DNA from: Cladosporium halotolerans
Lineage: Eukaryota
Assembly: GCF_011745625.1 (NCBI RefSeq)
Contig: NW_027191518.1
Span: 1-44,697, forward strand
Direction of reading: 5' to 3'
Length of the DNA stretch: 44,697 nucleotides
The position numbers and the translations under genes are program-made. The notes under the pieces were generated by a model. It did not search any database. It saw only the letters and a program-made list of their open reading frames with translations, and had not been told where the DNA came from. This document shows, piece by piece, positions 7,166 through 44,509 of this stretch (position 1 is its first letter; each line of letters starts with the position of its first letter).

Positions 7166-7226
7166 CTGGGACTTAGCCCAGGCCTATCCTAAGCCAGATC
7201 GCTTGCATATATTACTGTATGATTTA

Positions 7227-9069: not shown

Positions 9070-10153
9070 TAATATGGGGAATGGAACTGTTGTAATGGTT
9101 TCTGTAAAGATTCGTCTATGTGAAGTAGATTTCCTAGATGCGACAATATAAAGGATGAAGTCGATGATAGAACTGGAGCGTGTCTCAGAGCGCTGATTCC
9201 GCCATTTAGATTAGTCGTTAGGCTCACCTGACATACAGATTAATCGTCAGGCTCCCATCCGAAGGAACATCGCCCCACGTATACCAGCAACACTCGAACA
9301 TGGCCTCTACATCGATTGCTGTCTTGATCGGAAAAAGTGTGTAGCGTCGTAAGGTAGTGCTCGTCGTATAGCGATTATTTACTACCACAGCGACAATTTA
9401 TCGTTGTTGTTGAAGAAAGTTGTGACGCATTTCCCTCGCACAGCTATTCCAACAGTTGTCGTGTATCAGAACGGACTCTCCTCGAGCTACGGCCAATCAA
9501 ATTTTGCGCTTTCGGGGTGGTGACAGCACCCTCTACGCACACAGGAGTGGCAATTTTTCTTCGATGAGTTAGCGCTTGGCAATTTGACCGTATTCGCAGT
9601 TGATTTGGTGGCAGCCACGGTGTGATTGTTGCGTGATGCAGTGTCTCGTTCGCACACCCTTGCTTGAGGCCCGATTGCACGCCCAACCTTTCGCTAGCGT
9701 TAGGGCTAGAGCGGATCACCTTATCGGGTAACGGTCCAAATTCGAGAACCACCCTGAAACGGTCATGCCTCCGGCCGTGGTACACTACGGTCGTCCCACG
9801 CTATTGGCGGGGAAACGGGGAATTCAGACAGGCCTTCCATGCGCTGAGGACGGCCCTCTTCCCCGAGATGATCTTTACGAAAGTCCGCCCGCTTCAGGAT
9901 CGCCGGAAAACAACTTCATCACTAAAGCATCACACCTCACTTGCTGGAAGCGTGCCCTTGCCGTTTGCTAATTGAAAGTCACCATTGTGGACGGGGCTAT
10001 ATAGACCTACATCCCATAGGCCAATCACAATCTCATGTACTAAAGCGTCGCCCACGTGCGCTCGTGACTTGGTCCTTGCATTTGATCTCTCCTTCTCCAC
10101 TCCCGCATGCTGCTCTAGCAGCGACCACTACGCCGCTTTGCTCAAAAGAAGAC

Positions 10154-15700: not shown

Positions 15701-17455
15701 GTCCTCGCCGAGCCTCTGTCCAAGCTGTTCCAAAGCTGCCTGTAAAAATCCTATCACCCAATGCCATTCCGCCACTCTAAAACAGTGGTACTGAGAAAAC
15801 CACAAAAGGCGGCATACGATGTAGCAAAAGCATACAGGCCTATAGCACTGCTCAACACGCTCGGGAAGGTGCTCGAGAAGATCGTTGCCCGGCGTATGTC
15901 AGCGTTGGCCGAGGAACACAACCTTCTGCCTACCACGCAGATGGGCGCACGGCCAGGACGCTCGACCGGAACAGCGCTGGAAATGTCACGGAGCAGATCC
16001 CGACGGTCTGGGCAAACGACCGCACATTGGTGACGAGTATGCTGAGTCTGGACATCTCCGGCGCGTTCGACAATGTCTCGCAGACAGACTGATCAACAAC
16101 ATCCGAGACGCGAGGCTGCCGCAGTGGGTGGCAGACTACATCCGGTCCTTTTTGACCGATCAAACGACGACTCTCATGCTGGGCACCTACGAGGACAGGG
16201 TCCGTCCGACCACGTCGGGCATCCCCCAGGGCTCGACCCTGTCACCGATACTCTTCCTCTTCTTCGCCTCTACTCTCTTCCCACAACTAAACGCCGGGGC
16301 AACGACCGCGATCGGTTTCGTGGATGACACCAACATTCTCACGTTCAGCAGATCCACTGAAGCGAACTGTCGAGTTTTGGAAAGAGCAAACGAAAAGTGT
16401 ATGGCCTGGGCACGCACACACGGTGCGACATTCGCGCCGGAGAAGTACCAGCTGATGCACTTCACCCGCCGCTCGACAAAGTTCAACATGCAGGCGACCG
16501 TACGGATACCCAAGTTCCAAGACGGTCCAGTGCCAGTGATGAGAATCCTCGGCATCCACCTAGACTCGAAGCTCAAATGGGGCCCCCACGTAAACCTGAC
16601 TGCAGCAAAGTCCGCATCGCACATGGCATCAATCACCCGGATGACCAAGAGCACGTTGGGAGCCACATTCACCAAGGCCAGACAGGTCTACGCTGCCGTG
16701 GTCCGTCCAGTACTTTCTTACGGATGCCCTGTATGGTATTCCCTTGGTGACGAACGAGCCAACCTTAACCGACTGATCTATCCATTGCAGACAGTGCAGA
16801 ACAAGTGCCTCAGAACCATTACAGGCGCATACAAAACGACGAATGTCCAAGTGCTAGAACACGAAGCCAGCATTCCACCTCTGGATTTCCACCTCGAAAT
16901 GCTGGCGATCAACCATGTCCAAAGAGCAGAAGATTCCACAGGCAATCGGGCTGTGGAAGAAGCCTGTAAGGCTATCGACCGACGGGCCCAGCGCCGCTTT
17001 CGAACCAAAGGCAACATCCTAGAAGACACATGGACCGATTTCGAACAAGGACTAAATTGATACAACGGCGATCATGCCTGGCGGGGCGTGATGGGGGCAA
17101 AACAGCTACGAAGACAGAGCTCGAGGAGACTTGGAGAGCCAGGTGGACCGAGTACCAGCAGCAAACGTGTGCGGTGGTGAATGACAGCAAACTTTTGGTT
17201 GCAGCGTGTGCGACATGGACTCGAGGATTGCGGACGAAGGAGAACCTCACAAGGCCGAAAGTACAGTTGCAACACTGCTACGAACCGAACACATGCAGGA
17301 ACGATTACCTGTTTCAACGGCGCGTGCCCGGATACTCAAAGCCAGACTGCGACTGCGGCTGGCCGCGACAGACACCGAAACTCATCATTCTGTTCTGTCC
17401 TGCACACACGACAGGTCTGGCATAGATGCTAAGGGAGGCGAAGACGACCGACTAG
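12768..17455 (+). mobile_element. Tad1-clade LINE copy B (ORF1 with zinc knuckles; ORF2 APE-RT-cysteine motif), degenerate, same family as copy A
   Basis: ORF1 VRKLPSGDV, CQAYGHVAPVC, CGHCAGKH, CANCGKKH. ORF2 IIQYNV, GDFNLRH, RT with FVDD. Many stops and frameshifts. Protein closely similar to copy A. Confidence 0.93.
14123..14168 (+). repeat. 21-bp in-frame tandem duplication (FQPQTRT twice) in LINE ORF1
   Basis: TTCCAGCCTCAAACTAGGACA occurs twice in tandem. Confidence 0.9.
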
Positions 17456-17459
17456 ACAT

Positions 17460-20257: not shown

Positions 20258-20800
20258 ATGTTCCCGCAGATTCTCTCTTCGAGCCTTGCGCTTCTCACAA
20301 GCCTCTCACTCATCTCTTCCGCTCAAGCCTGCACTGGCCATAAGTTCAGCCGCGACGCTTCAATGTCGACCAACGACTCATCCAGCAGTGCCTTCAACCT
20401 AGGAAACGACGATCCAGCCCCGCTTGCCACGCACGGGTTCACTCTTAACCATTTTGGCTTACTGGTTAACGGTATGGAAGCGATGAAATATTTTTATGGC
20501 GAGGTGCTTGGCATGCGTCTAATATTTTCTTATTAAGCATCGCCCGAATACGAAAATTGTTTACATGGGCTACAGCCATGGGGGCAAAAATGGGACTGGA
20601 TACCAGACAGGCTCAGAGCTCTTTGCCCAGAAGACAAACATTGAGGGTCTCCTCGAAATGACGCACTTCAAACGCAGTGAGGGAAACAGCTCTGCTGACG
20701 AAGTGGAGCCGAGCACCAAAATGGCGAATACGTTCTCTCACATCGGGCTTGTCGTGTATGTCATCTCCCTGCGTGACTCGCCTAACCCGGACTACATATG
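20258..20800 (+). pseudogene. Secreted VOC/glyoxalase (lactoylglutathione lyase-like) gene, disrupted and 3'-truncated
   Basis: Hydrophobic N-terminus, LNHFGLLV..MKYFYGEVLGMRL, TAA stop at 20534, frameshift, YMGYSHGGKNGTGYQT..EGLLE..FSHIGLVV. The second half of the gene is missing. Confidence 0.8.
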
Positions 20801-20809
20801 AGACTTGCC

Positions 20810-21746
20810 TTGTGTTGCATCCGTCTATTGTGGCTCTTGCGGCGCTGTAACACCATGTCTGCGACCATATACCTGTCCCCTAGTGCTCAGCCCGTCTCTT
20901 CTGCCGTGTCCCTCTACTCTCTGGGCGTATGGCAGTGCTTTAAAGTGATCCCACGTGTTGTTCTTGTCTCCCACTAGGATCTTTGACGTGGCAATGTGTT
21001 TGCGAGCGTCTTTCGTCGTTCACGGCAGCTTCGATGTCTCCATCGGCGTTCAGCGGTATGAGAACGATGCTCCACTCCTGCTGGGCTTCGAATTACTAGC
21101 ATGAGAGCTCTAGCGCGAATCTCCTCGGGCTTTGTCATGTGGTGAAGGGTGACTAATCCTTCACCAATGGTTCTGGGGGCGACAGTGGGCGAGGCTGTCT
21201 GTGTATCTGTAGTATTGTGTGGCACCGATGAGTAGCGTGCCGATGCCCGGTGTTCGATTCGCGTAGAGATGATCCCGTTCTGTTCGAAGGCCTGCCGGCG
21301 TGGGACGCCGCAGACGTTGGCAGGTGCTTTGATGGACCTGCTCCCGGTCCATCCGTGGCTGTGTATTGTGACTGTTGCTGAAAAGTGTCTGTGCTCAGTC
21401 GCCGCACCCGTACTGCTGGACTCTGACCGAGGCACTGTACTGCTGCTAAAGCCGAAAGACGTGTTGTTTCGTGGCTTGCTCTTGATGTTCTGCATGTGTT
21501 GTCCACTGCGTCGACGAGAGGTCCTCTGCAGATCCCGTGTCCACGGGGAGAGTCGCGCGGTGACCTGCACAGGGCATCAGGGTCTTATGTGGACGTGATT
21601 GCGGCCGCGTTACTTGGTGTTTCCTTGCTCTTTCGCACCCGCTGCGTGCTCCTTATCCAAGTTGTTGAGGTCTCCTGGCTCTGTCAACTGTTGCCAGTGA
21701 CAGGTTCGTAGCCGGCACCACGTACAGGTGGACCTCATCGCCGGCC
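20810..21746 (-). mobile_element. 5' fragment of a ribozyme-headed LINE-like element (family X, copy 1)
   Basis: Starts with an HDV-like fold. Patchy similarity to 29770-30340 over about 550 bp (GAGCAAGCCACGAA, CAACGTCTGCG, AACAGAACGG, CAGACAGCCTCG). No RT remains, so LINE identity is inferred. Confidence 0.6.
21667..21746 (-). ncRNA. HDV-like self-cleaving ribozyme (class I, copy 1)
   Basis: P1 GGCCGGC/GCCGGCU; P2 GAGGUC-C/G-A-GACCUC; P3 ACC/GGU; L3 UGUACGU; P1.1 GU/AC; P4 CUGUCA-CUG GCAA CAG-U-UGACAG; J4/2 GCCAG. Confidence 0.85.
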
Positions 21747-21785
21747 GTCACCAGTCGTACTACAGCCCTTAGATAGGTCATTACC

Positions 21786-24700
21786 GGGAAAACTTTCTTT
21801 TCGGCTTTGTCACAGACAAGGTCATTATTTATACCAATCCAGAGCACAGACTAAGCGCATTGCGTATATAATAACGTGATTTCCAACGCCTCGGCTGGCG
21901 GGAATGTTATCCCCCAGTAGAGGCGGCGGAGGGACCCCTTTGAACGACATTTCAGGGTCCGAAGCGTGCCGGGGAGCCTCCGGGCGGGTCAGAAGCCTCG
22001 CAGATTTCGGATTCTGCGAAACGGACTTCAGAGAACTGACCATGAACATTGAAATCTCTGAACTCGACTGTGTGATGGTGGAGGATGAAGAGGGCGTTGG
22101 GGGAAACCGGAGCGCGAAGTCTGGGGAAGCTGACGACCTCGCCGACGCTGCTGCGGGGTTGCCTACACCGGAGACGAGGCAGGGGACGGTGGCGGAAGAG
22201 GTACCAGGTAGTGACGAGGGCTGAGGGTAAGCCGAAGCAAGCAGCTAAGGCTGCTGTGACGGCGCTCAAGCCTGGTGTCGTCCAACCGAGCCAACAGGCC
22301 GAGGCGTCGAAGAAACGTAGGGCAGAGGACCCTTTGACGAGGTCCAGCGATGGAAGCTCCCTGGCGGACCAGATTGAAGGTGTCAAATCCCTGGTCCTCC
22401 GTTTACTCGAACAAGGGAAGAACGAGATCTGGAGGAGGAAGAGAGACTGGAGATCTGCGATCTGAGGAAGGAAGTCAAAGACCTCAAAAAAGAAGTGAGG
22501 GAGCTCAAGAAGCTGCTTCAGGCGAACAACGTCCAAGCACAAGGTCCCACTTATGCGGCGGTCGCTAGGGCGAACATGCCGATGTTAACGGTCAGGACCA
22601 CGTTTCCGCGCGATAAAACGGGTGACGTGCAACCGCAACAGAGGCTGCGTGTTGAGGATGATAAATGCTCCATCACGGTCAACACCTCCAGGGTCAAAGA
22701 CGAGAAGCCGGACTTTGTGGCAGTAAAGGCCAAGCTCTAACAGGCAATCGATGGTAGCGGCGCTGTGGGAAACGCAAAGATCACTTGCCTTCGCCAGCTT
22801 CCAGGCGAAAGAATAAACGTGGTCTTCGCTTCTGCGGCAGATGCTAAACGGGCTCGGAACCACATTGGGTGGCTTGGGACTGCGATGGCCAACGCGAGAG
22901 TGCTCAGCGAGCCATGGTACCATATCAAGTGTGACATGGTTGCTAAGAGGGCCATGTTGGACGACCAAGCACCAGATGCGAGTTTGCCATAAACAATGCC
23001 AAGGAGGGGTTGGATTTCACGGCAATGAAGGCTAGCTGGCTCAGTAAGCTAGACCCGCGTAAAGCGAATGGATCTATGGTACTCTGGCTGAAGAGCAAGG
23101 CGGCCGCCGACTGGCTCTTGCAGACGGGCCAGGCTTCGTTTGGGGGAGGTGCTTATGGTGCCTGCTGTTCGAAATATCTCCAGGACAACTCGTCTAAGGT
23201 CTGCTACAATTGTAATGCTTATGGACACACGCAGACCAACTGCGGACGCGCCACTCGTTGTGGCAACTGTTCCGGTAGCCACCAAACACGAGACTGCACT
23301 GGTACTGCTTCGCTGAAGTGTCCTGCGTGTACGGGAGCTCACACAATCAAAGATTGGTGCTGTAAACACCATCCGGCCCACAGGAAATATCTCGCTCAGC
23401 TATCGAAATAACCAGAGGCCTCACAGTCGATGAAGTCTGCTGCAGGAGTGCCATGCGACAAAGATGCGGAAATGGACCGTCCCCAGCGGTGCAAATGATC
23501 AACGAACTCAAAATACTGCAGTACAACATCGGCAGGCGCAAGCAAGTTCAGTGGAGCACGTTCAATGATCCAAATTTGCAGAGTTTCGCGGTTTTGGCTA
23601 TCCTAGAGCCACACCTCTGGGAAGACCCCGGGATAGGAGAAGCGAGGACGCACCAGCATGATCGGTAGTACGCAATGACGCCATCGAAACACAGAACAGG
23701 AGTTCGTACATGGCATTCGTTTCGAGCTATGCTGTATTTCAGCATCAGCACGCATGCCAGACAGATTCCGGTTGACAGCTTCGACATTGTCGCAGCGACT
23801 ATAAGGCTCAGAGAAAAGACTATCCTAATCATCGCGATCTATGACCCAGGAGTGGAGCGAGACGCGACTGATCGGGATGCGGCTCTTCAGGTGAAGCGGA
23901 TCAAGTCCGGGATCTGGTAGACACAACCAAAGGCGAAATAGGTGACAGCCTACACATCATCCTGTTGAAGGGTCTCAACCGTCATGATATCCTATGGGGC
24001 GGCATTGCAGTGGCAGCTCACTGTAAACGTGACGAAGGCATTCGGATAGTGAATTTTGCACAGGAATACGGTCTACAGTCGCTCCTCACACCGGGTACTA
24101 TAACGTGGGAACACCCAGCCAGCATCGCTCGTTCCACAGTCGATGTGATCATGGCATCAGAAGGCATGGTAGAGTCTCAGACGTGCTGTAAGGTGTATGA
24201 CACAGACCATGGCTCAGACCACAGGCCGATAGAGATGAGATTCGACCTTCCGGTGGATCAACCCAAGGACCGCAGACGGAGACTACAGTTCCAGAAGGCT
24301 GATGGAAGGTCATTGGGCGCGCAGTTGAGGCACGCTTACCACTCTCAGATATCCCGAGTGAAGTCACGCAAGATGAACTCGAGGAGTATGCGACGCATTC
24401 CATGCGAGTGGTCACGGAAGATATGCATGCAAGAGTTCTCAGGTCCAGACCTTCGCCCTACGTGAAAAGATGGTGGACACCAGAATTGACACAAACTACG
24501 GAGCAATATGACTGCTGCCAGAAACGCCATCACAGCTTTACGGCGCAGGGGTGAATCACCTGATGAAGCTCAACAACAGTTTTGGCTGGCGAAACGTCGC
24601 TTCTGTCGCGAGATGGAGGCTCAGAAAAAGAACCACTGGCATGCCTTCCTTGACGACCAGAACAATATCTGGAAGGCAAACTCGATCTCGAAGTTGATGT

Positions 24701-26177
24701 CCCACAGTACCAGGATCCCGGTACTCCACACTGAGAACCGCGTGGCCGAATCCGACGAGTCAAAGGCCGATGTGTTGATGGAAAGCTTCTTCCCCACTCC
24801 GCCACCACCAGAAGAAGCCTCAACAGTTCCTCAAACCGACGGAGGGGGCGAAAGTCTTTTGGATATGCTGCCGGCAGTGACGTACCAAGAGGTCGAAAGA
24901 GCGGTGATGCATCCGAATCCCAACAAAGCTCCTGGCCCGGATGAGATCCCGTTTGCCGCGTGGAGGCAATTACTACCCTTCGTCAAGGAATCGATCAGGT
25001 GGCTGTATCAAGCATCGTTGTCGCTAGGCCACGTCCCTCGGCTTTGGCGCGAGGCGAGCATAGTGGTGTTGCGTAAACCTGGAAAGAAGGACTATGGCGT
25101 TACCAGGGCATACAGACCCATCTCCTTACTATCTGCAATAAGTAAGGGGCTTGAGTCTAGCTCCAGGCTACGCTACACGCTGCAGCCGTGGAAGACGCTT
25201 CCTCAAATAGCGATTCCGCGTTCGGCTGAGGAAGCCATCAAGCGTTACAAACTTGCCATTCAGACTCAGGAAAGGCTGGTGTTCTACCCCGATGCTTCGG
25301 TACGGAATAACGTCGCTAGTGTAGCAGTGACAGTTCTGGGTTTTGAGAAGCTAGGTCGCATACCAAAACTGATATACCAGGCCACCGTAGGGTGGGAGCA
25401 CACGTGCTCCGCCACTGCCGCCGAAGTCAAGGGAATTGAGCTTGCCGTGCTTCACGCCAGAAGTGCGGGAAGACACTTCTCCACAGTAACGGACAGCCAA
25501 GAGTCGATCACGCTGGTCAACAAGAGGGGCCGCTCAGCCAAGGCAAGAGACACGGCCGGTGCGGTACTGAGAGCAATTGGTTCGTGTCTAGAGGAAGCAT
25601 TGGACTTTGACATACTCTGGGTACCCGCCCACAAAGGTATAGCTGGCAATGAAGCAGCAGATCGTGCAGCTAGACAACTGACGGAAGTGCATGGACGGCC
25701 GACAAGAGTCCCGGCATTTCGAGTGAGTGAACGACCAAAGGTCATGAGAACTGTGGAGGAGACAGTCAGGCGAGAGAGCACGGTCTCACCGTCGCACTGG
25801 GGAAGGCACACCTACAGTCTCAACGCTGCTCTGCCTGGTAAACACGTCTTGAAGTTGTATGGCATGCTTTCACGGGAAGAGGCCAGCATCCTGCGCAGGC
25901 CCGAACCGGGCATGCGCGTCTGAACTCGTACCTTCCAAGGATAAGTCGTGGAGGACGGCAAGAGCAGCTGCTGTGATGGCGGTGAGACGGTCAGCCACGC
26001 CCTATTGTGGTGTAAGCGATGGAGCCACCTACGTGAAAGGCTCATAGAAAAAGCTGGTCAGAGATGGGGAGACATTTCGTACCTCCTAGGAGGACGAAGC
26101 TCGAAAAGAGTTCCAATTAACGGCCGACTGATTGATGTTCCGGGAAAATGGAAACTAGATTGCAAGATGGTGTGGGA
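21786..26177 (+). mobile_element. LINE copy D with RNase H (Tad1/I-like), degenerate, RT core deleted
   Basis: ORF1 21904-23411 with CYNCNAYGHTQTNC, CGNCSGSH, CPACTGAH. APE ILQYNI..LNRH..VDV..GSDH. RT start KAPGPD..YRPISLL joined to RNase H FYPDAS..E..DS..WVPAHKGIAGNEAAD. C-terminal CCDG.ETVSHALLWC. Confidence 0.9.
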
Positions 26178-26289
26178 AACGCCGCTTCACATGCCGTCTG
26201 GTACCTAGCACACTCCATTATCTTCGCGTTTCGGCAGAATAATGGAGTAGGGTAACAATCTCCGACGTACAATGTACCTATCACCACAA

Positions 26290-29200
26290 TCACTTGTTCC
26301 CAACCGTGCTGATGATCTGCTGTATCTTTTCCACGATCTTCTCAATTCTATACGGCTTGCTGATCACGTCATCCTGATGATCATTAGCTACAGTCGATCT
26401 CTTGTGGCAGTGAAATCGCTCTTACCATTCCTGCCGACTTCCTGTCAAAAACACAAGATAGAAAGGTCAGTGTCTGCTGGTCTGAAATCTCAAAAACAAA
26501 GCGAGCACTTACATCTCTGCTTGTTGCTCGCTTCTGACGTTAGCAGTGACCCCGAGGATAGGAATATGCTCTATCTGTCCCTGCCTTTCCAGCTCGCGTA
26601 TAGTTTTCGTAGCGGTATTCCCATCCATTATTGGCATTTCCATATCCATAAGGCAGATGTCAAAAGCATGTTTGTCACTGGAGAGCTTCGAAGCATTCAT
26701 CACAGTCGTGACAGCCTCTTTGCCATTGTTCGCCACCGTTACGTCGTAGCCTTTGTTCTCTAGCTTCCGACACACCAGTTTTTGGTTGATCACATTATCC
26801 TCAACGAGGAGAACATGAGCCCGCACCCTTGGCTTGGCTGGTAGAGTCTTCAGCGTCGTCCCCTGATAGGAGGAGCCTTCACCGTTTTCTGCTGAGGACA
26901 ATGACGCCATATCGACTCTCAGGTCCTGGCTACTCTTCCGTTCGTTCTGGGATGCGATAGAACCTTTCGTATCCTGGTTCATGCTCTCTTCTCGAACCTT
27001 TGAAGCGATCTGAGCGGTGCGCTTATACCTGTCATCTTCCTGATGATTGGTATTACGAATCATGTCCTCCGTTTTCGCTACTGGTGGATTGTCCAAGCTC
27101 CCCGGGAAGATGCTGTTGTCTATGTTTTTCGGCGCGAAATTGCCAAGCTCATTGATCTGGCCTCTTAAAGGGGCGTTGTCCAGTTCCTGCTCCTCTACCC
27201 GGCTTTCATAGCTCTGTGGCTGCCCGGTACGCTTCACTTTGAAGAAGAAGCCAAATGTACTGCCACAGCCAGCTTTAGAGCTGACACCGACCTCGCCGCC
27301 ATGGACATGACATAGCTTCCGACTGATGTTAAGGCCCAAGCCCGAGCCCCCATAAATCTCGACAGTCTTCGGCGTAGCCTGCCTACGTATGTGCTTAGGA
27401 CAAAATATACGTATCAGCACCAGGCTTCATATCCGACTTACTGCATCGTTTAGGTCAGTCCCAAGCAACACACAGGAATTAAGGAGCACCTCGCAAAACC
27501 TACCCTAAATCGCTCGAACAGCCGCTGCTGGCCTTCATCACTGATTCCGATGCCCGTGTCTTTCACTGCAACCATAATGTAAGCCGCCGCACCAGTGCCC
27601 CAGTCTCGCGTGTTGGTAGCATCCACGCGATAAGCATGATCTTCAGGACTAAAAAATACGACGTTGGGCGGGTAGCTTGTTGGACGTTGCACACTGGCAC
27701 CCACCGAAACTACCACCTTCTTCTGACCTTGGGCTCTCGCGGTGAACTTAATCGCGTTCGAGACCAGGTTTATTAATACCTGCGAAATACGGACCATATC
27801 TGCCTTGAGGGGAAGGGTAAAAATTAGCAAATTCTCGAGGCAAGGTATGATAGCAGGCATCAATAGCCATTCTCCCGTTTTGGAACTGCTGCGCATTCAG
27901 TTGGCAATAAGCAGGCCACTGTTGTGGCCCACTCATGTCTGCCAATCTATACCTCATATGTCTCGGCTCGGAAAAGACAACGAAGGAACACAGGAAATAT
28001 AAAAAGTGAAAAAGGATGTGGAGACGAGCAGGCTTACCAGGACCCAAGATACATCCAAATCGAGGTAGGATTGATCTATTCTGTAGCCAAACTCGACTTC
28101 TTGCCGACGAAACTCAGGTTGAAAGAGTTTGAGAGAGTTTGCGATTTGACGATCCGGCAAGCAGGCCTTCGGGCTCAAAGACAGCATTGAAGCGTCCAGT
28201 TTTGAGAATGACAGCACGTCATCAACAATATTTCGCTGGTGCTTTGCAATTAAATAGCACATCAGCCTCGATATCAGGTCCACGCGGTACCTGCCGACCT
28301 TACCTGGATGCAGACGTTGATAGTCTCGACAGACTCTTTGATGCTGGCAATGTCGACATTGCTCAGATCACTGATGGCATCCTCGATATCTTCGGAGCAG
28401 TGCAGCAGAGCCGATAATGGATTGCGGATTTCGTGTGATATCATATCAATGAACCTCTCCTGCTGCTCTTTGCGTTCACGAGCGTCTTTGGCGGCCTTTC
28501 GCTCCGCAAGCTCCGCACTCTTCTCGGAAGTAATGTCGACAACGCTACAGATGAAGCCTCCATATTCGCGCAAGCTCACATGCTGAAGATTGTCATCGCC
28601 AAGTGGTGTTAGGAAAAGCAATCGCCATGGATGTTGATCACCGAGCGCCCTGAACTCTGTCCGAAGCTGTTTTTGCGAGAAAAAGGCATCATGGTATATA
28701 TCCATGACTCGATTGTAGTCATCAGGATGGATACTCTGTGGCCACGATTTGAACTCCTGGTTCTCGCCGCGATGGGTAGTCAACTGGTAAAATTGCTGGT
28801 TGACAAAGACTGCTTGCGCTTTATGATCGAGAATTGCCAGGCCCGTCGGTAGCATTTCAGCAAAACGGTGAAAGAATGGATGCTCGTCGAATGAGACACC
28901 GTTGAGTGCCCGTCCCAGCTGGCTCATGTCACATTCGGTCTCTGGGTTCTTCTCTGGCATTTTCATTTCCCAAAGATCTGGTCGTGAAGGATGCTTTTCG
29001 TTTCCGCCCCGGCCATAGAGGTCGGGCTCTGGTATCATCTGTACGAGTGAGCCATCCGCACCGTGCTCTCTCGGATCTGTGTCGTCGAACAGGGGGCTGA
29101 TGAGTGTTGTATAGCGGCCTACTTCATAGCCGGAGTGATCCCGAAGAAAAGCGCGACTGTTGACCCTTTTGGGAACGCCGCCATGTAAAGAGGCAGACAA

Positions 29201-29575
29201 TGCGTTAAAGCCGTCCGCGGACAGCTTGCCACGTTGCTCTTGACCTTGGTCGTGAATTCCACTGGCCTTTCTCCATTCGCGATTCTGCAGAAGAATCATC
29301 TCCTCACCCCAAAAGACGCAGGCAGGATAAGCAAAAGACGCAACGGCTTTGGTATAGGCCTTTAGCGCCTCCGGCCACGTCCCCGGCTTCTCAAAGGGGG
29401 AATGCTCCCACGCCCGCTCATTCCCGGGTAGCAAACCCTTCAATTCACTTTCAGCACGCTCATGCAGTGATTGCTCAGCTTTAGGGTTCATGATTGGTGG
29501 TCGTTGATGACTTCTTCTTGCTTGATTGGTTTGCACTGACCTTGCGCCCGTCCGTCGAAATACTCGAGGACTCAC
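26290..29575 (-). CDS. Hybrid sensor histidine kinase (PAS-HisKA-HATPase_c-REC), multi-exon; start uncertain (in-frame ATG at 29491 or an upstream exon)
   Basis: PAS IHPDD; H-box MISHEIRNPLS; N-box NLVSNAIKFT; G1 DTGIGI; YGGSGLGLNIS; receiver VLLVEDN..DICLMDMEMPIMDG..TAN..DDVISKPY. Five GT-AG introns. Confidence 0.9.
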
Positions 29576-29769
29576 ATGACGGGGTTAGCTGACATTTTGA
29601 CAAAGTGGTGTTGGGAAAGCAATCCGCCGGATTGATGCTATGAATCGTCATCTTCCCGGCCCGGGCCGTATCACATGACCCGGGCATTCTCTATCCGACA
29701 ACAAAGTGACCCTGGCGAACATATTCCAACCACTGTCGAGAAATGAAGAAGCTTCTGAGGACAAGGCTC

Positions 29770-29850
29770 GGCCGGCGACGAGGCCCACGTGTACGTGGTG
29801 CTGACTACGAACCTGTCACTGCTCAGCAGCTGGGGGAGCCAAGAGGCCTC
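29770..29850 (+). ncRNA. HDV-like ribozyme (class I, copy 2; partly decayed)
   Basis: P1 GGCCGGC/GCUGACU; P2 GAGGCC-C/G-A-GGCCUC; P3 ACG/GGU; L3 UGUACGU; P1.1 GU/AC; J4/2 GCCAA. Confidence 0.8.
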
Positions 29851-30340
29851 AAGAGAAAAGCAGGAAGACAAGGCGAGCACAAAAGAGCAAGGAAAGCGCA
29901 AACATACCACCACCAGAACCATCCGCTTGGAATCTGCAACAGACTCTGTAGGCCATTACGTCTTCCTCCGCGTCGAACGAATTGTAGAGCCACTGTTGCA
30001 GTCACGGCGGATACAGATTGCATAATTCCACGAGCAAGCCACGAACACGATGCGCAGATCCAAGTCGACGATAACGGCCGCAGCCTGGTCTCGATATAGC
30101 AACCCGGACACGATTACCGAGCCCAGGCAACCCAAAATACCACAGTCAACGTCCAGAATAAAGTCCTCGATGGATCAACCGCCCGCCCATCACACGTACC
30201 CGACAACGTCTGCGACGTCCCGCCTCAACAAGACCTCAAACAGAACGGCATCATCTCCTGCACGAATTGGACACCAGACACACAACACTAGAGTCACCAG
30301 ACAGCCTCGTCCACTGTCGGCTCCCTCCAAGCCCCACAGG
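29770..30340 (+). mobile_element. 5' fragment of family X, copy 2
   Basis: Homologous to 21170-21746 (minus), including an aligned ATG-GAY start and QRLRRP codons with a synonymous change. Confidence 0.6.
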
Positions 30341-30692: not shown

Positions 30693-30765
30693 AGCGCACT
30701 TCATTTCACTGCAAAGCAGCTACTCACACCAGACACCACGTGAAGGTGTGCGCTCTGCCTCCGGC
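30693..30765 (-). ncRNA. HDV-like ribozyme (class II, E-loop P4) with the catalytic C replaced by U
   Basis: P1 GCCGGA/UCUGGU; P2 AGCGCAC/GUGCGCU; P3 ACC/GGU; L3 UUCACGU; P4 AGUA-G-CUGC UUU GCAG-U-GAA; J4/2 A-U-GAA. Confidence 0.8.
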
Positions 30766-31270
30766 GCTGTTGGTGTTACAGCCCTGGTGTGCAAAGTGGT
30801 TCTCTCCAATTGGGTTGCCGCGGCGAATTGAGCACTTTTGGAAATGGCCTTATGAAAATATCACTACGTGAGAAAGTATCTTTGCACAGATGGCAGGAGT
30901 ACGGTCGGTCGCCAGTGTCTGCTCTTAGCCATCATACTACATGGGAAAATTCCCTCCCAAAGTCATCCACTGGCTCACGTTTCAACAGATGGCGCTTCAT
31001 ATGCTTCGCGTGGAGGTATGCCTTGTTGCATTGCGAACAAGGGTACTTCCCGTCGGCATGCTTTCAAAGAATCACGTTTTCGCTGATTTGTCCATAGCCA
31101 GAGACAGGCGTGTTAGGTCGGCCTGGCACGCTTGGAAGAAGACTACGACGGTCATGCGAACCGACCACGCGTGTAGGTGCCTCCTTGTTCTGCATGAAAG
31201 GTGACCGGTGGACCTTTCGAGGGTTGTCAGGCTGAACAAGCTGCCCATAGATCCGCCAACTCCGCAAGAG
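30766..31270 (-). pseudogene. Fragment of a C2H2 zinc-finger transcription factor gene (RfeC-like), frameshifted, intron retained
   Basis: RVVGSHDRRSLLPSVPGRP..DGKYPCSQCNKAYLHAKHMKRHLLK, an intron, then HTGDRPYSCHLCKDTFSRSDI, a frameshift, and HFQKCSIRRGNP. Confidence 0.8.
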
Positions 31271-31286: not shown

Positions 31287-32720
31287 CAGAGATGTCAATA
31301 TGTGAATCGTTATTCAGTAATTCGATTCAGTAATTCAGTTCAGTCACTACTGTATCATTCCTTCTTGGATCATGCCATAGATTCAGTTTAGATTCAGTAG
31401 ATTCAGTAAACTCGACCCACCCCAGGCGTATATTGGAGCACAACACAGCATGGCTCAGAACGTAGAGCTAGATGCGACTCCGCATTGCGGGCCTTGCGGG
31501 CAAGCCTTCAAATTCGGTAGTGCTCACACACCATCGCCGTGGTCCAAGGCACTACCCCACGGTTTCGCTGGCATGAGCCCTGATACAGACCGCGAAACCT
31601 CTAGCGAGGCTTCCCATACGGAATTTGATCTTCTTGATGTGCACTCCAACCACAACGGGATACCTCTTTCTAGCGAGTCCGGCTCTCAGCCTGATGATGA
31701 CCTGATACATCCAGCTAAGAGACCGAGGAAAGGGCGGGCTCCGCGAGCGGTCGCCCTGTGGTCGCACGCACGCAGCCCTCTGCCGCATGAGCCGTCGCGT
31801 GCACCTTCGGGTCATCGATGGTTTTACTGCAGTCGTTGCGATTGGGAAAGCATCACATCCAACGCGCGGAGGCATGTGGCGAGTTATGGCATACACATCG
31901 GACAAGACGATTCTCTTCAGAAGCAGGCTGCAGCCAGATCCATCAAGGCGTCCTTCAGTGCCCAAGAGCTTGCGGCGCAGGCGAGGAGCGACGAGAAGAC
32001 GAGGAACACTCTCCGCAACGCTTGCAACAAGGGCAGTTTCCGCAATGCGGTCGCACGCTTTGTCACCAGCCAGAGCCTAGCTCACAATGTTGTCGAGTCA
32101 AGGGAGTTTCATGCTATGTGCTTAACCCTCAATTGTGAGGCTGGACACGCTCTGGTTCGGTCCCACTCGTCTATACCTCGTCGCATCGCATCTAATTTCA
32201 AATACCAACGCTCCTTGGTAAAGGACGCTTTGCATGAAGCTCAAAGCGCGATTCAGCTCTGCACAGACAGCTGGACGTCCGGCCTCACCAATCAGCGTGA
32301 GTTTCAGGCAATCAACGCACAGTGGGGAGACGCGAATGGCCAGATACAACGCGCGCTGTTAGCCTTGCCAGAGCTTACGCAAGGTCACGCTGGAGAGGAC
32401 GTAGCACCTCATATCATTGACGTGTTACAAAGGGTCAACATCAAGCACAAACTTGGTTTCATCACTGCCGACAATGCTACAGCCAATGACACACTTTGCC
32501 GGGCAATAGAGCAGCATCTGGCCTCGGATGGAATTACTTGGGATGCGGCAACCCAGAGGTTGCGATGCCTCGGTCACACCCTCAACATAGCTACGCAAGC
32601 TCTCATGTTTGCGAAATATAGCGAAGCTGTTGATGTAGCCGCACAACGTACGGCCAACACTCGGTCTGTAGAAGAGTCCATTGCTTCACTATCGCAGACC
32701 CAGAAGGAAGGCTGGCGACG
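31287..32720 (+). mobile_element. hAT (Restless-like) transposon 1, left end plus 5' half of the transposase
   Basis: CAGAGATG start followed by ATTCAG subterminal repeats. BED finger FYCSRC..RRH; LCTDSWTS; TADNATAND; LRCLGHTLN. Truncated after EGWRR. Confidence 0.85.
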
Positions 32721-32759
32721 CGCGCCCATGGTGGCCGCAAGTAAGTCTCAACAAGCAAA

Positions 32760-33263
32760 AAGGGACTTCTTTTCGCTTTTGTCACAGACAGGGTCATCTT
32801 TCATATCAATCGGAAGCACAGCTCAAACACAGTGCGGCCACACCAACGTGATCTCCAACGCCTCGCTGGCGGGAATGTCATCCCCCAGTAAAGGCGGCGG
32901 AGGTACGCCCTCGAGCGACTTTTCACGGTCTGAAGCGCCCGGGGAGAGCTTCCAGCCAATCGGGAGCCTCGCTAATCGAAAGCTGTTCACGCCGGGTTTC
33001 AGACGTGAACCCCCAGAGAGCCAGGAATACCAGCACGTCGCCAGAACGTGCCCGGCAAGCCCGAAAAAGCGGAAAGCAGAGTCAAACATCGCTGTGAGCA
33101 TTGAAGAGGATGCACTATGGCAGGCGATCGAGAAAGCCGTGGCGAGGGCGTTGCAGGCCTTGGTAGGGCCCGACCTCGCCTCTGGCTCATTAGGGAATGT
33201 AAGATCTCTGCGAAGCGGGATCAAAGATATCAAAAACAGTATTGACAAGACGCAAATGTAAGT
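32760..33263 (+). mobile_element. 5' end and ORF1 start of a LINE related to copy D, in frame with the hAT1 ORF
   Basis: 32765-32945 is similar to 21792-21975 (TTTGTCACAGACA.GGTCAT; MSSPSKGGGGTP versus MLSPSRGGGGTP). Confidence 0.8.
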
Positions 33264-41396: not shown

Positions 41397-43916
41397 ATGG
41401 CGGCAACGACGACGGCAGCCTTAGAAGCAGCCATCGAACGACGAGCTGAAGTAGTGCTCTTGCAAGGACCTTATGCTGGAAAGAAGCACACGATCAGCCA
41501 CCCGGGCTACCAGTTACGCTGGCCGGAGTGCGAGAAGCAAGACATACGGGTGGCTCTAACCATTCGCGTTGACATGCTCGATATGTATGTCTTTGAATAA
41601 AGGACTGACCTGATAGACCACCCCTGCGTGCAGTGTATGGACGTCTGGGAAACTCAGGGAAGGCGGAAGGTGCGCAAGACGAGGGTCACCAACATCTCCA
41701 ACAGAGCAAGAGTGGAGGGGGGCGGGCACACAATCAACGGCATCGACTTTAGGGAGTTGATCCAAGGAAGGACGATTCTGGCGGGCGACTTCAACGCTAG
41801 GAGTCCTGTGCGTAACGCACGGATGGAAGGCCGCTACGACGCTGCGTCACCGAAGGGCTCATCGAAGACCATGCGCTGATTGCGGACAATGACTTTCAAC
41901 CGACAAGATGTGCGAAAGAGCAGATCGGTCATCGACCTGACGCTGAGCACCCCGAGTGTCGGAACGCTGCGAACGTGGAAGATCGATGAAGACCTCGCCA
42001 CACCATCGGATCACACGGTGATGGCCTTCTCGCGGGATCGGCTGTACTCTCATTCAGGCGCACGTGAGGCGAGATAGATGTTAAGCTGGGATATCGATAA
42101 GCTCCCCGCAGATGAAGAGCGACTGAAGCAAGCGCAAGACCATTGGAAGGAGCTCTCTGGTAGGAGACAATCCATCTCGACTGAGCCATGTAAAGTGGAC
42201 CTCAAAGAAGAGGCAAAGTGGATACAGTACAACCTCACGTCGGTTCTCGACAGACACGCGACTCTGAAACCAATACATCCCCGATCGAAGCGGTGGTGGA
42301 CCGACGAGATCAAGCAGGAAAGGAAGAGACAGTGTGCATCTAAGCGGGCCCTCCGGTCGAAGGAACTGCCCTTCGAAGAATACCGTCAAATCAGAAATGG
42401 ATATTATTGCTGCATTCGGCGCGCAAAGAGAGAGGCGGGGATACGCTTCCTCGAAGGAGTGCTACCGACCAAAGAAGAAGCGCAAACTACAGCTGTCAGC
42501 GATCGATGCTGGAATGCCCTCCGATACACCAAGCCCCGGACAACTTCGTACACTCCCGCAATCAAGATTATCGGGGATGATGGGCAGCCAGAAGGGCTTG
42601 CGGCGTCAGCGGAGGAGAAGAAGACGTCTTCGTGAATCAAGCGTTTCCGCGCCAAGAGGAAACTGACGACGACATCTCCATTCCGGACACGAGAGCTCAA
42701 GTCGGAGCAAGAGAAGTGCAAGAAGCGCTCTTCGCACAGTCGGTCAAGAAGGCACCAGGCATTGACAAGCTCGGCTGTCGTGCGCTGAGACTGCTGTGGC
42801 TGTGGGACGACACTAGAGTGGTGGTGCTTGTCAGAGGGTGCATCACATCAGGATACCACCCACTCTGCTGGAAGGCTGCCAAGGGCATACTGCTGCGCAA
42901 GCACTACAAGCCGACATACACCGTCGCCAAAGCCTACCGCATCATCAGCCTGTTGAGTTGCTTAGGTAAGGTCGTCGAGAAAGTGGCAGCCACATGGATC
43001 GCATGCTATTGCGAAACGAGCAGGGTGACCCACCAGGGTCGGTTTGGCTGTCGTCACAGCAGGAGCACGTCTGAGGCGGTCGCAAAACTAGTGTCTCCCG
43101 TGGAAGGCGCTTGGGAGCGGAAGCCGATGGTTCTTACGCTGCTGCTGAATGTCAAGGGGGCCTTCGATCGCGTGAACAAGCAACGGCTGCTCAAGCGTAT
43201 GATTGAGGTTGGCATCGCGGGCAACATTGTCCGCTGGGTCGGCTCGTTCCTGTCTGACAGGCGGGCGAAGCTAGTCATCGACTGCAGGGCCGGGGGAACG
43301 CACGACATACAGGCGGGTCTGCCGCAAGGTTCGCCCCCGTCACCGGTGCTGCTCATCCTGTCAGTAAGCGCCATGTTTCCGTACCTCGAAGAAAGGCATC
43401 CTGATAATGAATCGTTATCTTTCGTGGACGACATGGGCTTGGTGTTAAGGTGCGGCGACTTGAACGAAGGTGCGTGAGAGCTCGAAAACGTCGCTCGACA
43501 TGCAGTCGAATGGGGAGACAACAATCAAGTCGAATTTGAGATCAGCAAGACGGAAGTCTTGGTTTTCAGCAAGCAGCGCAAAGTGCTACAAGCAAGCAGG
43601 CAGGCGACGGTCCAGATTGGAGAACAGGAGTTTTCTTTCAAACATGGAGCAACAAAGTGGCTAGGCTCCTGGCTAGACTCGAAACTGTCCTTCAAGACAC
43701 ACTTCGAGAAAAGACTAGCTAGCGCCAAAGGAGCTCTACAGAGAGCCAAGGGTCTCGGCGGCAGTCGCGGTGGCTTGCCTATGCGTCTGATGCGACGGGT
43801 CGTTGTAGCGGCCGTGAACTCGGTCGCGCTTTATGAAGCTGAGGTGTGGTGGAGAGGACAGCAAGATCGCGCCAAGCGTCTGCAGCAACTGCTGCTGAAC
43901 AGTCAAGCGAGGATCG
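41397..43916 (+). mobile_element. LINE copy E, ORF2 (APE plus RT), degenerate and 3'-truncated; decayed ORF1-like sequence probably lies upstream from about 40220
   Basis: VVLLQGP, AGDFNA, SVIDLTL, SDH; RT KKAPGID, AYRIISLL, NVKGAFD, GLPQGSP, SFVDD, KWLG.WLDSKL. Confidence 0.9.
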
Positions 43917-44152: not shown

Positions 44153-44431
44153 CAGGCTGTTCATCGGACAGACAGACAGGGTTTCAGAGAATGTCTGGTC
44201 TGCTTACCTAAGAACCGGCGTCTTGTCTGTCTGTCTGAGAAATGGCGATGATTTGTCTGTCTGTCTGCGTAGTATGCCAAGACATCTTTCCGAATATGTC
44301 CCGTAAGTGCAATCAACCCTCCACGCAGAGAGGCGAAGAACTTGTGTGGTCGTCAGCAAATCCTGATTCCCGCCAGGGTCGTTTCCCCCATTGGGTGGTC
44401 AGTCTGTCGTGCATCTGCAAGCCTGAACAGC
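44153..44431. mobile_element. MITE-like element related to 6767-7082
   Basis: Starts CAGGCTGTTCATCGGACAGAC, has GTCT/AGAC repeats, and a partial right end TGAACAGC. Confidence 0.55.
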
Positions 44432-44437: not shown

Positions 44438-44509
44438 GCCGGACGAGAGCGCACACCTTCACGTGATGTCTGGTGTGAGTAGCTGCTATGCAGTGAAACC
44501 AAGTGCGCT
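44438..44509 (+). ncRNA. HDV-like ribozyme (class II, E-loop P4) with the catalytic C retained
   Basis: P1 GCCGGAC/GUCUGGU; P2 AGCGCAC/GUGCGCU; P3 ACC/GAU (one mismatch); L3 UUCACGU; P4 AGUA-G-CUGC UAU GCAG-U-GAA; J4/2 A-C-CAA. Confidence 0.85.

What the first reader, a model, noticed from the sequence alone, without database searches (positions are those of the whole stretch)
29770..29850. Second class I ribozyme copy with a compensatory P2 change, upstream of the histidine kinase gene
Seen: paralogue of 21667-21746. P2 changes from GAGGUC/GACCUC to GAGGCC/GGCCUC (U-A to C-G, compensatory). The distal P4 changes sequence but still pairs (CUGC/GCAG). L3, P1.1 and J4/2 (G-C-CAA, C at 29839) are conserved, while flanking sequence is much more diverged. 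Single mismatches in P1, P3 and P4 suggest later decay. It lies about 200-280 bp upstream of the kinase ORF, pointing away from it, so the insertion may have altered that gene's promoter or first exon.
Basis: partly seen in the sequence, partly recalled or inferred. Interest (0 to 1): 0.8.

Follow-up and report, generated by a model that had tools for sequence, protein, structure and literature searches.

The report
Decayed HDV-type ribozyme heading a fungal retroelement
This 81-base stretch is a worn copy of a hepatitis-delta-type self-cutting RNA that forms the first bases of a fungal jumping-gene family, a kind of element already known, so it is real but fairly ordinary.

Summary
29770-29850 (+) is an inverted paralogue of 21667-21746 (-). 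It has the stated U-A to C-G swap in P2, a re-paired P4 tip, and single mismatches in P1, P3 and P4.

The helices are those of an HDV-like nested double pseudoknot.

A metagenome scan gave 16 more loci. In all 12 copies that have a 5' flank, similarity starts exactly at the predicted cleavage base G1, and the upstream DNA is unrelated.

The window holds a second type (44438-44509 +, 30693-30765 -) with the same spacing but different P1 and P2 sequences. Aligned with type 1, it gives 9 pairs changed on both sides, 96.8% of cells paired, and 0 of 500 shuffles as good.

The best Rfam hits are HDV families, below threshold.

The module heads a ~1.2 kb non-coding element with a (CAAT)n tail, and in one locus it precedes a reverse-transcriptase fragment. 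I read it as the 5'-processing ribozyme of non-LTR-type retroelements.

Fungal HDV variants were published and cleavage-tested in 2017. This is therefore a new member of a known kind.

Copy 2 is probably inactive. An effect on the kinase gene is untested.

The parts
29770..29850 (+). Copy 2 of the type-1 HDV-like ribozyme module (the finding). Layout: P1 5' 29770-29776; J1/2 29777-29779; P2 5' 29780-29785; extra C 29786; P3 5' 29787-29789; L3 29790-29796; P3 3' 29797-29799; P1 3' 29800-29806; P1.1 29807-29808; P4 29813-29836; J4/2 29837-29844 (CCAAG from 29839); P2 3' 29845-29850.
   Evidence: Sequence; alignments. CM R1 scores 87.7 bits and R2 80.5 bits. Pair counts.
29851..30330 (+). Body of the decayed element headed by copy 2. 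It is related to family A and is cut off at about element position 560-575.
   Evidence: Similarity to copy 1 and to L016/L003/L004 runs as far as 30325. No continuation was found beyond that.
21667..21746 (-). Copy 1 of the type-1 ribozyme. All helices are intact, but J4/2 reads CCAGG.
   Evidence: R1 scores 114.1 bits. The best Rfam match is RF00094 at 22 bits, full length.
20755..21666 (-). Family-A element body behind copy 1. Similarity to the metagenome copies ends at element position ~991, whereas full copies run to ~1195.
   Evidence: 85-87% identity over ~1000 nt to L016, L004 and L003. The (CAAT)3 and (CAAAT)n tails are seen in L016 and L003.
30693..30765 (-). Type-2 HDV-like ribozyme copy, converging on the copy-2 element. 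J4/2 reads AUGAAG instead of ACCAAG, so both C's are lost.
   Evidence: pair I8 (94%). R2 scores 49.5 bits.
44438..44509 (+). Type-2 HDV-like ribozyme copy. Spacing of positions 1-39 is the same as type 1. P1 is GCCGGAC/GUCUGGU and P2 is AGCGCA/UGCGCU. AGUA/GAA sits at the base of P4, and CCAAG is in J4/2.
   Evidence: Found by the descriptor scan.. R2 scores 55.3 bits. The best Rfam match is RF02682 at 18.5 bits.
26509..29575 (-). Hybrid histidine kinase gene (PAS, HisKA, HATPase_c, response-regulator receiver). It is spliced, and its 5' end faces copy 2.
   Evidence: Pfam. A GT..AG joint on the minus strand at 28241-28304 appears in runs X3 and X5.
21795..26200 (+). Degenerate LINE (CCHC gag-like ORF, APE-type endonuclease, RNase H), head-to-head with copy 1 and 48 nt away. 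It has no ribozyme of its own by the models used.
   Evidence: Pfam. The 5' boundary is shared with 32767. CM search.

Best explanation
29770-29850 is a worn copy of an ~80-nt self-cleaving ribozyme of the hepatitis-delta (HDV-like) fold. The module forms the first bases of a family of fungal non-LTR-type retroelements.

How it most likely works:
1. Such an element has no need of its own precise start site. It is transcribed from whatever promoter lies upstream.
2. The nascent RNA folds into the nested double pseudoknot. P1, P1.1 and P4 stack on one side, and P2 and P3 on the other.
3. The first C of the conserved CCAAG in J4/2 acts as the catalytic cytosine.
4. The chain is cut immediately 5' of G1. 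This removes the host leader and sets the element's 5' end.

Shown here: every copy begins at G1, and the helices are kept through sequence change. Inferred from the HDV family and from the published fungal variants: the catalysis itself.

History of copy 2:
- It derives from a diverged sub-lineage, with the compensatory U-A to C-G change in P2 and a 4-bp/triloop P4 tip.
- After insertion it picked up mismatches in P1, P3 and P4 that gut the fold, so it is probably no longer active.
- Its element is truncated at about +560.
- It sits in the divergent intergenic region upstream of a hybrid histidine kinase gene, next to a second-type ribozyme element in the opposite orientation.
For: (1) Many copies. 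A metagenome scan found 16 loci. CM R1 scores all 18 copies (16 loci plus 2 in the window) at 70-117 bits. The 53 chance pattern matches fetched from prokaryote and viral collections score at most 11.3 bits.

(2) The 5' boundary. In all 12 copies whose upstream flank is held, similarity starts at G1 (plus or minus 1-3 nt in BLAST) and the flanks are unrelated. Two of these flanks, L006 and L011, may be related to each other, which would make 11 independent flanks. My loose HDV descriptor hits about 2.8e-5 of positions by chance (2.5 per shuffled window). A descriptor G1 falling exactly on an independently defined repeat boundary is therefore not chance (inference).

(3) Covariation. With the two type-2 copies aligned by MAFFT without reference to structure, 9 of 28 pairs change on both sides (3 in P1, 5 in P2, 1 in P1.1). 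96.8% of 315 cells pair. 0 of 500 shuffles reach this, and slid controls give at most 3 pairs.

(4) Strand. 24 G.U cells would be A.C mismatches on the other strand.

(5) P4 tolerates a 1-nt indel in 3 of 13 copies. This also rules out a coding reading.

(6) Among 4227 Rfam families, the best hit for copy 1 is RF00094 HDV_ribozyme (22 bits, E 0.12, end to end, helices in register). For type 2 the best hit is RF02682 (18.5 bits, E 0.09).

(7) Retroelement context. Family A is ~1195 nt and ends in (CAAT)3 or (CAAAT)n. L015 has (CAAT)4 six bases before G1. In L013 the ribozyme is followed about 390 nt later, on the same strand, by a fragment matching the reverse-transcriptase region of a window LINE (tblastx; RVT_1). 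That LINE ends in (CAAAT)3 at 3194-3208.

(8) Published precedent. 230 variant HDV ribozymes in 26 fungal species, with cleavage shown for two, carry an extra nucleotide (mostly C) between P2 and P3 (PMC5640933, section 7). All 14 sequences here have that C.

(9) Decay of copy 2. P1 energy goes from -12.2 to -2.8 kcal/mol, and P1+P3+P4 from -26.2 to -10, against an alternative minimum-free-energy fold of -28.3.
Against: - No Rfam family reaches its gathering score.
- My descriptor alone is not significant: 4 sites in the window against a mean of 2.5 in 40 shuffles.
- Within type 1 there is only one two-sided change, and 41 of 500 shuffles do as well. The metagenome pattern also forced L3/P3 and the 5' side of P4 to be invariant.
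- The strong covariation rests on two near-identical type-2 sequences from this same window. In effect it is one lineage contrast.
- P3 never covaries, and two registers fit equally well.
- No cleavage data exist for these sequences.
- No full-length LINE with this ribozyme at its 5' end was seen.
- Family A has no conserved ORF.
- L013's ORF has no Pfam hit of its own.
- The 3' link between family A and a LINE is only a shared microsatellite tail.
- Target-site duplications could not be examined.
- Two of the three published variant features are not clearly met by type 1: it has G.U, not C-G, at the cleavage site, and no evident loop E.
- Some copies share only the ribozyme with no common downstream sequence (L001, and the type-2 pair). 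That is unusual for LINE-like elements, which normally lose their 5' ends rather than their 3' parts.
Confidence: 0.8

Rival explanations
1. The ~80-nt module is a structured but non-catalytic 5' element of the retroelements. It could be an internal promoter, a reverse-transcriptase recognition site or a translation-start structure. On this reading its likeness to the HDV fold is only partial.
For: Rfam scores are far below gathering. There is no cleavage assay. In L1Tc the first 77 nt are both a promoter and a ribozyme (PMC3185411, passages), so 5' modules can carry other roles. Type 1 lacks two of the three published fungal-variant features.
Against: All five HDV helices are present with HDV spacing: positions 1-39 align to RF00094 without shift. 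P1 and P2 covary. A G.U pair sits at the cut site in 10 of 11 copies. CCAAG lies where HDV has its catalytic C and the two A's. Fungal relatives with the same extra C have been shown to cleave.
Confidence: 0.08
2. Copy 2 still cleaves, or has been taken over by the host. On this reading it trims a transcript that starts in the shared promoter region with the histidine kinase gene, and it influences that gene's expression.
For: It lies 195 bp upstream of the kinase ORF in divergent orientation. P2, P1.1, L3 and CCAAG are intact. Contigs of three runs that also hold spliced joints cover the element body between 29770 and 30343.
Against: There is a C.A mismatch in P1, a G.G in P3 and a G.G in P4. 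The ribozyme fold is about 16 kcal/mol weaker than in copy 1 and well above the alternative fold. The element is truncated and lies within a cluster of transposon remains. No data link it to kinase expression.
Confidence: 0.1
3. The two window copies are conserved 5' UTRs of paralogous host genes, not mobile-element ends.
For: Similarity runs ~560 nt downstream of both copies, and short ORFs overlap it.
Against: There are 12 flanks, unrelated to one another except possibly L006 and L011, in metagenome contigs and the window. No ORF is conserved across copies, and several frames are open at once. None of the ORFs tested in these elements has a Pfam hit. Family A has simple-repeat 3' tails. At least four different downstream sequences sit behind the same module.
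Confidence: 0.02

Closest known systems
Variant HDV self-cleaving ribozymes of fungi (Li and Breaker, BMC Genomics 2017, PMC5640933). I read the abstract, section 7 in full, search passages and one supplement table row.
   Same: Fungal and intergenic, with a nested double pseudoknot. An extra nucleotide, mostly C, sits between P2 and P3, and C17 is present in all 14 sequences here. Type 2 has AGUA/GAA at the base of P4, which fits their loop E. The paper notes "widely variable gene associations".
   Different: Their typical C-G pair at the cleavage site is G.U here. Type 1 shows no evident loop E. The paper's main text holds neither 'transpos' nor 'retro' (0 occurrences), so it does not tie the ribozymes to retroelement 5' ends. 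Their alignment files could not be read, so I cannot say whether these very sequences are among their 230.
L1Tc / NARTc 5' ribozyme (Pr77) of Trypanosoma cruzi (PMC3185411, passages).
   Same: An HDV-like ribozyme occupies the first ~77 nt of a LINE. It is shared nearly unchanged with a non-autonomous partner whose downstream sequence differs, and it cleaves at +1 to release the element from longer transcripts.
   Different: A different host kingdom and no sequence similarity. L1Tc has a single-pair P1.1. Promoter activity is shown for Pr77 and is not examined here.
HDV-like ribozymes of R2, RTE and Baggins non-LTR retrotransposons. Known to me from review PMC6765202 (passages). The primary papers, Webb 2009 and Ruminski 2011, are not held.
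   Same: The ribozyme sits at the 5' end of elements without their own promoter. The review describes the pattern seen here: conserved downstream sequence with varying upstream sequence.
   Different: Those are animal elements. R2 is specific to rDNA. Here the flanks are varied and several carry promoter-type motifs.
Rfam RF00094 (HDV ribozyme) and RF02682 (F. prausnitzii HDV-like ribozyme).
   Same: These are the best Rfam matches, aligned end to end with P1, P3 and P4 in register. The P1 strands of type 1 read the same as the RF00094 consensus.
   Different: 22 and 18.5 bits against gathering scores of 50 and 44. P2, L3 and P4 have different sequences.

Membership tests
HDV-like self-cleaving ribozymes (fold class) | P1 of about 7 bp starting at the cleavage site, with a G.U (purine-pyrimidine) pair at its base | tested here: met
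   7 pairs. G1.U37 is present in 10 of 11 type-1 copies with letters at both positions, and in both type-2 copies. Copy 2 itself has 6 of 7 pairs (C.A at 3/35).
HDV-like self-cleaving ribozymes (fold class) | P2 pseudoknot joining the 3' end to the strand between P1 and P3 | tested here: met
   6 pairs with 100% of cells paired. 5 of the 6 pairs change on both sides between types, and one changes within type 1.
HDV-like self-cleaving ribozymes (fold class) | 3-bp P3 closed by L3 of about 7 nt, and P1.1 between L3 and the two bases after P1 | tested here: inconclusive
   Both can be drawn in every copy. P3 never covaries, and two registers fit. P1.1 is invariant in type 1. In type 2 one pair changes compensatorily and the other is lost.
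HDV-like self-cleaving ribozymes (fold class) | Variable P4 hairpin | tested here: met
   97% of cells paired. The tip is a GCAA tetraloop or a 4-bp/triloop form (3 of 13 copies). P4 is shorter in type 2.
HDV-like self-cleaving ribozymes (fold class) | Catalytic cytosine in J4/2 followed by N-A-A | tested here: met
   CCAAG is present in 10 of 12 type-1 copies that reach this part (copy 2 included) and in 1 of 2 type-2 copies. The mapping onto the HDV catalytic C is by position in the Rfam alignment and from recall of the family.
HDV-like self-cleaving ribozymes (fold class) | Site-specific self-cleavage | not testable with these tools
   The available runs are contigs only. They cannot show RNA ends.
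Rfam RF00094 / RF02682 | Score at or above the curated gathering threshold | tested here: not met
   22 bits against 50, and 18.5 bits against 44. Nothing was found at gathering over the whole window.
Fungal HDV ribozyme variants (PMC5640933) | Extra nucleotide, mostly C, between P2 and P3 | tested here: met
   C17 is invariant in all 12 rows of A6 when P3 is drawn in the HDV register.
Fungal HDV ribozyme variants (PMC5640933) | Loop E partly replacing P4 | tested here: inconclusive
   Type 2 has AGUA opposite GAA at the base of P4. Type 1 has GAAC opposite AGAG, which is not a textbook loop E. The loop E motif is recalled; their figure was not seen.
Fungal HDV ribozyme variants (PMC5640933) | C-G pair at the cleavage site (described as typical, not universal) | tested here: not met
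   G.U in both types.
5'-terminal ribozymes of non-LTR retrotransposons | The cleavage site coincides with the element's 5' boundary, and upstream flanks are unrelated | tested here: met
   12 flanks, of which L006 and L011 may be related.
5'-terminal ribozymes of non-LTR retrotransposons | The element behind it is a LINE or a non-autonomous derivative, with an RT/endonuclease or a LINE-type 3' tail and target-site duplications | tested here: inconclusive
   An RT fragment lies behind the ribozyme in L013. Family A has (CAAT)n/(CAAAT)n tails, and a window LINE has a (CAAAT)3 tail. No full-length autonomous copy was seen, and no duplications could be examined.

The most novel reading that the evidence does not exclude
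These fungal ribozyme-headed retroelements may be aimed at promoters.

The data:
- In 4 of the 11 flanks tested (L011 left out), the hexamer ACGTGA, an E-box half-site, lies on the same strand 55-58 nt upstream of G1. The four flanks are otherwise unrelated.
- Both type-2 copies have a CCAAT-box-like CCC(C/A)ATTGG about 48 nt upstream.

The reading: integration would be tethered at a fixed distance from a DNA-bound transcription factor. A host promoter would then drive the element, and the ribozyme would trim off the host leader. This pairing of targeting and processing has not been described for non-LTR elements in the papers I could search.
Probability: 0.25. Interest if true: 0.6.

Novelty: new member of a known kind. 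Interest (0 to 1): 0.35.

Why it matters
The result gives a plausible biological role to the fungal HDV-type ribozymes. The 2017 paper that reported and cleavage-tested them describes only "widely variable gene associations". Here the module sits at the exact 5' end of mobile retroelements, as in R2, RTE, Baggins and L1Tc of animals and trypanosomes.

The window also offers a compact natural test set: two ribozyme types, and both intact and decayed copies. That set could serve for structure-function work.

For genome annotation, such ~80-nt modules mark the starts of otherwise hard-to-recognise non-coding retroelements in fungal promoter regions.

The copy in question is most likely a dead remnant.

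Tried and rejected
- Whole-genome search: no genome is held for this window.
- Earlier scan notes: none by place or by sequence.
- Rfam at gathering, and at E up to 10 on 601-base stretches: nothing relevant. Only 101- and 96-base searches brought up the HDV families.
- Sequencing runs: no RNA holder is listed. All four runs laid were contigs.
- Contigs near G1: X3 record 22 (29747-30148) and X5 record 31 (29760-30277) reach only 23 and 10 letters upstream of G1. That is fewer than the 31 the tool requires for bridging, so there is no verdict on cleavage of copy 2.
- The stretch 29591-29746 has no cover in X3. I draw nothing from that.
- A high-depth X1 contig over 21000-21529 is a paralogue with 47 differences. 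It stops ~210 nt inside the element and says nothing about G1.
- An X3 loose end at 21707 shows another copy with an altered P4 that I could not fold convincingly.
- An X11 loose end at 21701 shows a copy with a different 8-bp P4 hairpin followed by AGCCAAG. Only 30 letters are given, and its 3' end does not obviously pair with the usual P2.
- Prokaryote and viral scans with an 18-base pattern: 50 and 3 hits. By my arithmetic about 69 are expected by chance in the prokaryote collection. All score at most 11.3 bits with the model, and I used them as controls.
- tRNA origin or tRNA-linked targeting: no tRNA genes in the window or in 10 loci.
- Coding reading of the module: rejected because of the 1-nt indels in P4.
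- Continuation of the copy-2 element beyond the type-2 insertion: none found.
- Ribozymes at the 5' ends of the window's own LINEs: none by model R2 with filters off.
- Pfam on ORFs flanking metagenome copies gave no consistent neighbour.
- Plain minimum-free-energy folding cannot represent pseudoknots. z-scores were -2.24 for copy 1 and +0.47 for copy 2.

Full report
**The observation**

The stretch 29770-29850 (+) and the stretch 21667-21746 (-) are inverted paralogues (pair I9). Two 17-19-base patterns from the core each occur exactly twice in the window, at these places, against 0.13 and 0.02 expected.

Identity between the two copies is as follows:
- Ribozyme: 67 of 80 aligned bases.
- 70 bases upstream: 38.5%, which is chance level.
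- Most 100-base bins downstream: 46-68%.
- One block at 30251-30330: 83.6%.
- Beyond about 30430: chance level.

- P2 goes from GAGGUC/GACCUC to GAGGCC/GGCCUC.
- The P4 tip changes from CUG-GCAA-CAG to CUGC-UCA-GCAG.
- J4/2 reads AGCCAAGA, with the C at 29839.
- There is one mismatch each in P1 (C.A), P3 (G.G, if P3 is drawn ACC/GGU) and P4 (G.G).

The "kinase ORF" is 28274-29575 (-), with PAS and HisKA domains. HATPase_c and receiver domains lie further down the minus strand, so the gene is a hybrid histidine kinase. The element lies 195-275 bp upstream of that ORF and points away from it.

**What fold it is**

"Class I" is not a family name. The helix names are those of HDV-like ribozymes.

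Numbered from G1, copy 1 reads as follows:
- P1: 1-7 with 31-37. This is GGCCGGC/GCCGGCU, with G1.U37.
- J1/2: 8-10.
- P2: 11-16 with 75-80.
- An extra C at 17.
- P3: 18-20 with 28-30.
- L3: 21-27.
- P1.1: G22-C39 and U23-A38.
- P4: 44-66, with a GCAA loop.
- J4/2: 67-74.

Rfam gives nothing at gathering or on 601-base stretches. On a 101-base search, the best of 4227 families is RF00094 HDV_ribozyme (22 bits, E 0.12, gathering 50). It aligns end to end with P1, P3 and P4 in register. RF02682 is also listed.

A loose descriptor of my own for the fold matches 4 sites in the window, against a mean of 2.5 in 40 shuffles. A fold match alone proves nothing.

**More copies, and the boundary**

No genome is held for this window. 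It is evidently fungal: spliced genes, a Fungal_trans domain, and fungal-type transposons.

A scan of metagenome contigs with a 22-base gapped pattern gave 16 loci. A covariance model built on the distinct sequences scores all 18 copies at 70-117 bits. The 53 chance matches to a shorter pattern in prokaryote and viral collections score at most 11.3 bits.

Twelve copies have a 5' flank held: L001, L002, L003, L006, L007, L008, L010, L011, L014, L015 and the two window copies. L004, L005, L009 and L012 repeat flanks already listed. L013 and L016 start at a contig end.

In all twelve, similarity begins at G1 and the flanks are unrelated. L006 and L011 may share a flank.

The descriptor hits about 2.8e-5 of positions by chance. 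Its G1 falling on an independently defined repeat boundary is therefore the first strong point (inference).

**Covariation**

Within type 1, 97.9% of 332 cells pair. The search pattern had also fixed part of the sequence.

The descriptor scan turned up a second type at 44438-44509 (+). It has a 94% identical copy at 30693-30765 (-) (pair I8).

Type 2 compares with type 1 as follows:
- Spacing is the same through position 39.
- The bases that form P3 in either register are the same, apart from one change in one type-2 copy.
- The C at 17 is the same.
- CCAAG is present in J4/2 of the copy at 44438.
- It has a CUGC-NNN-GCAG P4 tip.
- P1 is different (GCCGGAC/GUCUGGU), and so is P2 (AGCGCA/UGCGCU).

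Aligned by MAFFT without regard to structure, the 12 sequences give these figures:
- 9 of 28 pairs change on both sides: 3 in P1, 5 in P2 and 1 in P1.1.
- 96.8% of 315 cells pair.
- 0 of 500 shuffles reach this.
- Slid controls give at most 3 pairs.

The other P3 register gives the same totals. This is in effect one lineage contrast, but across nine pairs.

Twenty-four G.U cells fix the strand. A 1-nt indel in P4 in 3 of 13 copies excludes a coding reading. With filters off, a model of both types finds exactly these four copies in the window. The next best hit scores 9.6 bits.

**What it heads**

Behind the same module lie at least four different sequences.

Family A comprises copy 1, L002, L003/L004, L008/L009, L014 and L016. 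It is about 1195 nt long and has no ORF conserved across copies. It ends in (CAAT)3 or (CAAAT)n. L015 has (CAAT)4 six bases before its G1.

In L013 the ribozyme is followed about 390 nt later, on the same strand, by a fragment that matches the reverse-transcriptase region of a window LINE (tblastx; RVT_1). The minus copy of that LINE ends in (CAAAT)3 at 3194-3208.

Copy 2 heads a diverged relative of family A. It stops at about +560 (30325-30330) and meets the type-2 element coming the other way.

I saw no full-length autonomous element with the ribozyme, and I could not examine target-site duplications.

**State of copy 2**

Nested P1+P3+P4 is worth -26.2 kcal/mol in copy 1 and -10 in copy 2. 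P1 alone falls from -12.2 to -2.8. An alternative fold of copy 2 reaches -28.3. I infer that copy 2 is inactive.

The type-2 copy at 30765 has lost both C's of CCAAG, and L011 has lost the first.

Runs X1, X3 and X5 hold GT..AG joints in the neighbouring minus-strand gene, so they contain spliced RNA. Their contigs cover the element body between 29770 and 30343.

**Comparison with what is known**

HDV-like ribozymes at the 5' ends of R2, RTE, Baggins and L1Tc are established. So is the pattern of a conserved downstream sequence with varying upstream sequence (PMC6765202 passages; PMC3185411 passages).

L1Tc and NARTc share their first 77 nt but not the rest. That is much like the families here.

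Li and Breaker reported 230 variant HDV ribozymes in 26 fungal species and showed cleavage for two. They describe an extra nucleotide between P2 and P3, a loop E in P4, and usually a C-G pair at the cut site (PMC5640933, section 7). Set against those three features:
- The extra C is met here.
- Loop E is evident only in type 2.
- The cut-site pair here is G.U.

Their main text holds neither 'transpos' nor 'retro'. Five full-text searches found no paper tying fungal HDV-type ribozymes to non-LTR elements.

Their alignment files, the primary papers of Webb 2009 and Ruminski 2011, and bioRxiv supplements could not be read. Priority therefore remains open.

**Verdict**

This is a real HDV-type ribozyme module of a fungal retroelement family. 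The copy in question is a decayed remnant, and the compensatory change is genuine. It is a new member of a known kind. An effect on the kinase gene remains untested speculation.

Noticed in passing
window 44438-44509 (+) and 30693-30765 (-): A second type of HDV-like ribozyme. It has the same spacing and J4/2 motif as type 1, but different P1 and P2 sequences and AGUA/GAA at the base of P4. The two copies share only the ribozyme (94%), not their downstream sequence. The 30765 copy has lost the CC of CCAAG.
   Followed up: yes
L001, L002, L008, L014: 55-58 nt upstream of G1: ACGTGA lies on the element's strand at a fixed distance in 4 of the 11 flanks tested (L011 left out), and these flanks are otherwise unrelated (z at most 2.5). 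An unbiased scan of all hexamers and positions picks this one. In 500 shuffles no hexamer was shared by more than 3 flanks. This may reflect promoter-directed insertion.
   Followed up: partly
window about 44389-44397 (+) and 30806-30814 (-): Both type-2 copies have a CCAAT-box-like CCC(C/A)ATTGG about 48 nt upstream of G1, in flanks that are otherwise poorly alignable.
   Followed up: no
window 21747-21794: Copy 1 sits head-to-head with the 5' end of a degenerate LINE (21795-26200 +), only 48 nt away. In L011 a fragment of the same LINE type also lies inverted just upstream of the ribozyme. This could be coincidence in a transposon cluster or a joint-insertion product.
   Followed up: partly
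window 32767-33010 (+): A second ~240-nt copy of that LINE's 5' end (77% identity) lies inside the long ORF 31450-33261, so the C-terminal part of that ORF is probably spurious.
   Followed up: partly
window 3194-6467 (-) and 14551-17458 (+): A large inverted pair of another LINE, with an APE endonuclease and RVT_1 (74-84% identity). The minus copy ends in (CAAAT)3 at 3194-3208. The pair flanks a Tc5/pogo-type DNA transposon at 7224-9072 that has 36-nt inverted ends and a DDE_1 transposase.
   Followed up: partly
window 25750-25816, 25967-26033, 26200-26267 (minus strand): Spliced joints with GT..AG ends on the minus strand in run X1, plus 26000-26082 in X3, lie downstream of the kinase's receiver domain and overlap the tail of the plus-strand LINE. 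They are further exons of the kinase gene or a separate gene.
   Followed up: no
window 21701 (loose end of a contig of run X11): Another genomic copy of the ribozyme carries a quite different 8-bp P4 hairpin (CUGAGAUG-UCUU-CAUCUCAG) followed by AGCCAAG. Only 30 letters are shown, so the rest could not be checked.
   Followed up: no
window 21000-21529: A 945-nt contig of run X1 with depth 90 matches the family-A body with 47 differences. A paralogous family-A copy may be highly represented in that run.
   Followed up: no
window 2372-2447: Three exact copies of a 28-nt unit at 24-nt spacing (family D3).
   Followed up: no
window 42632-43477 (+): A third reverse-transcriptase ORF (RVT_1) lies upstream of the type-2 ribozyme at 44438. 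The ribozyme is downstream of this LINE, not at its 5' end.
   Followed up: no
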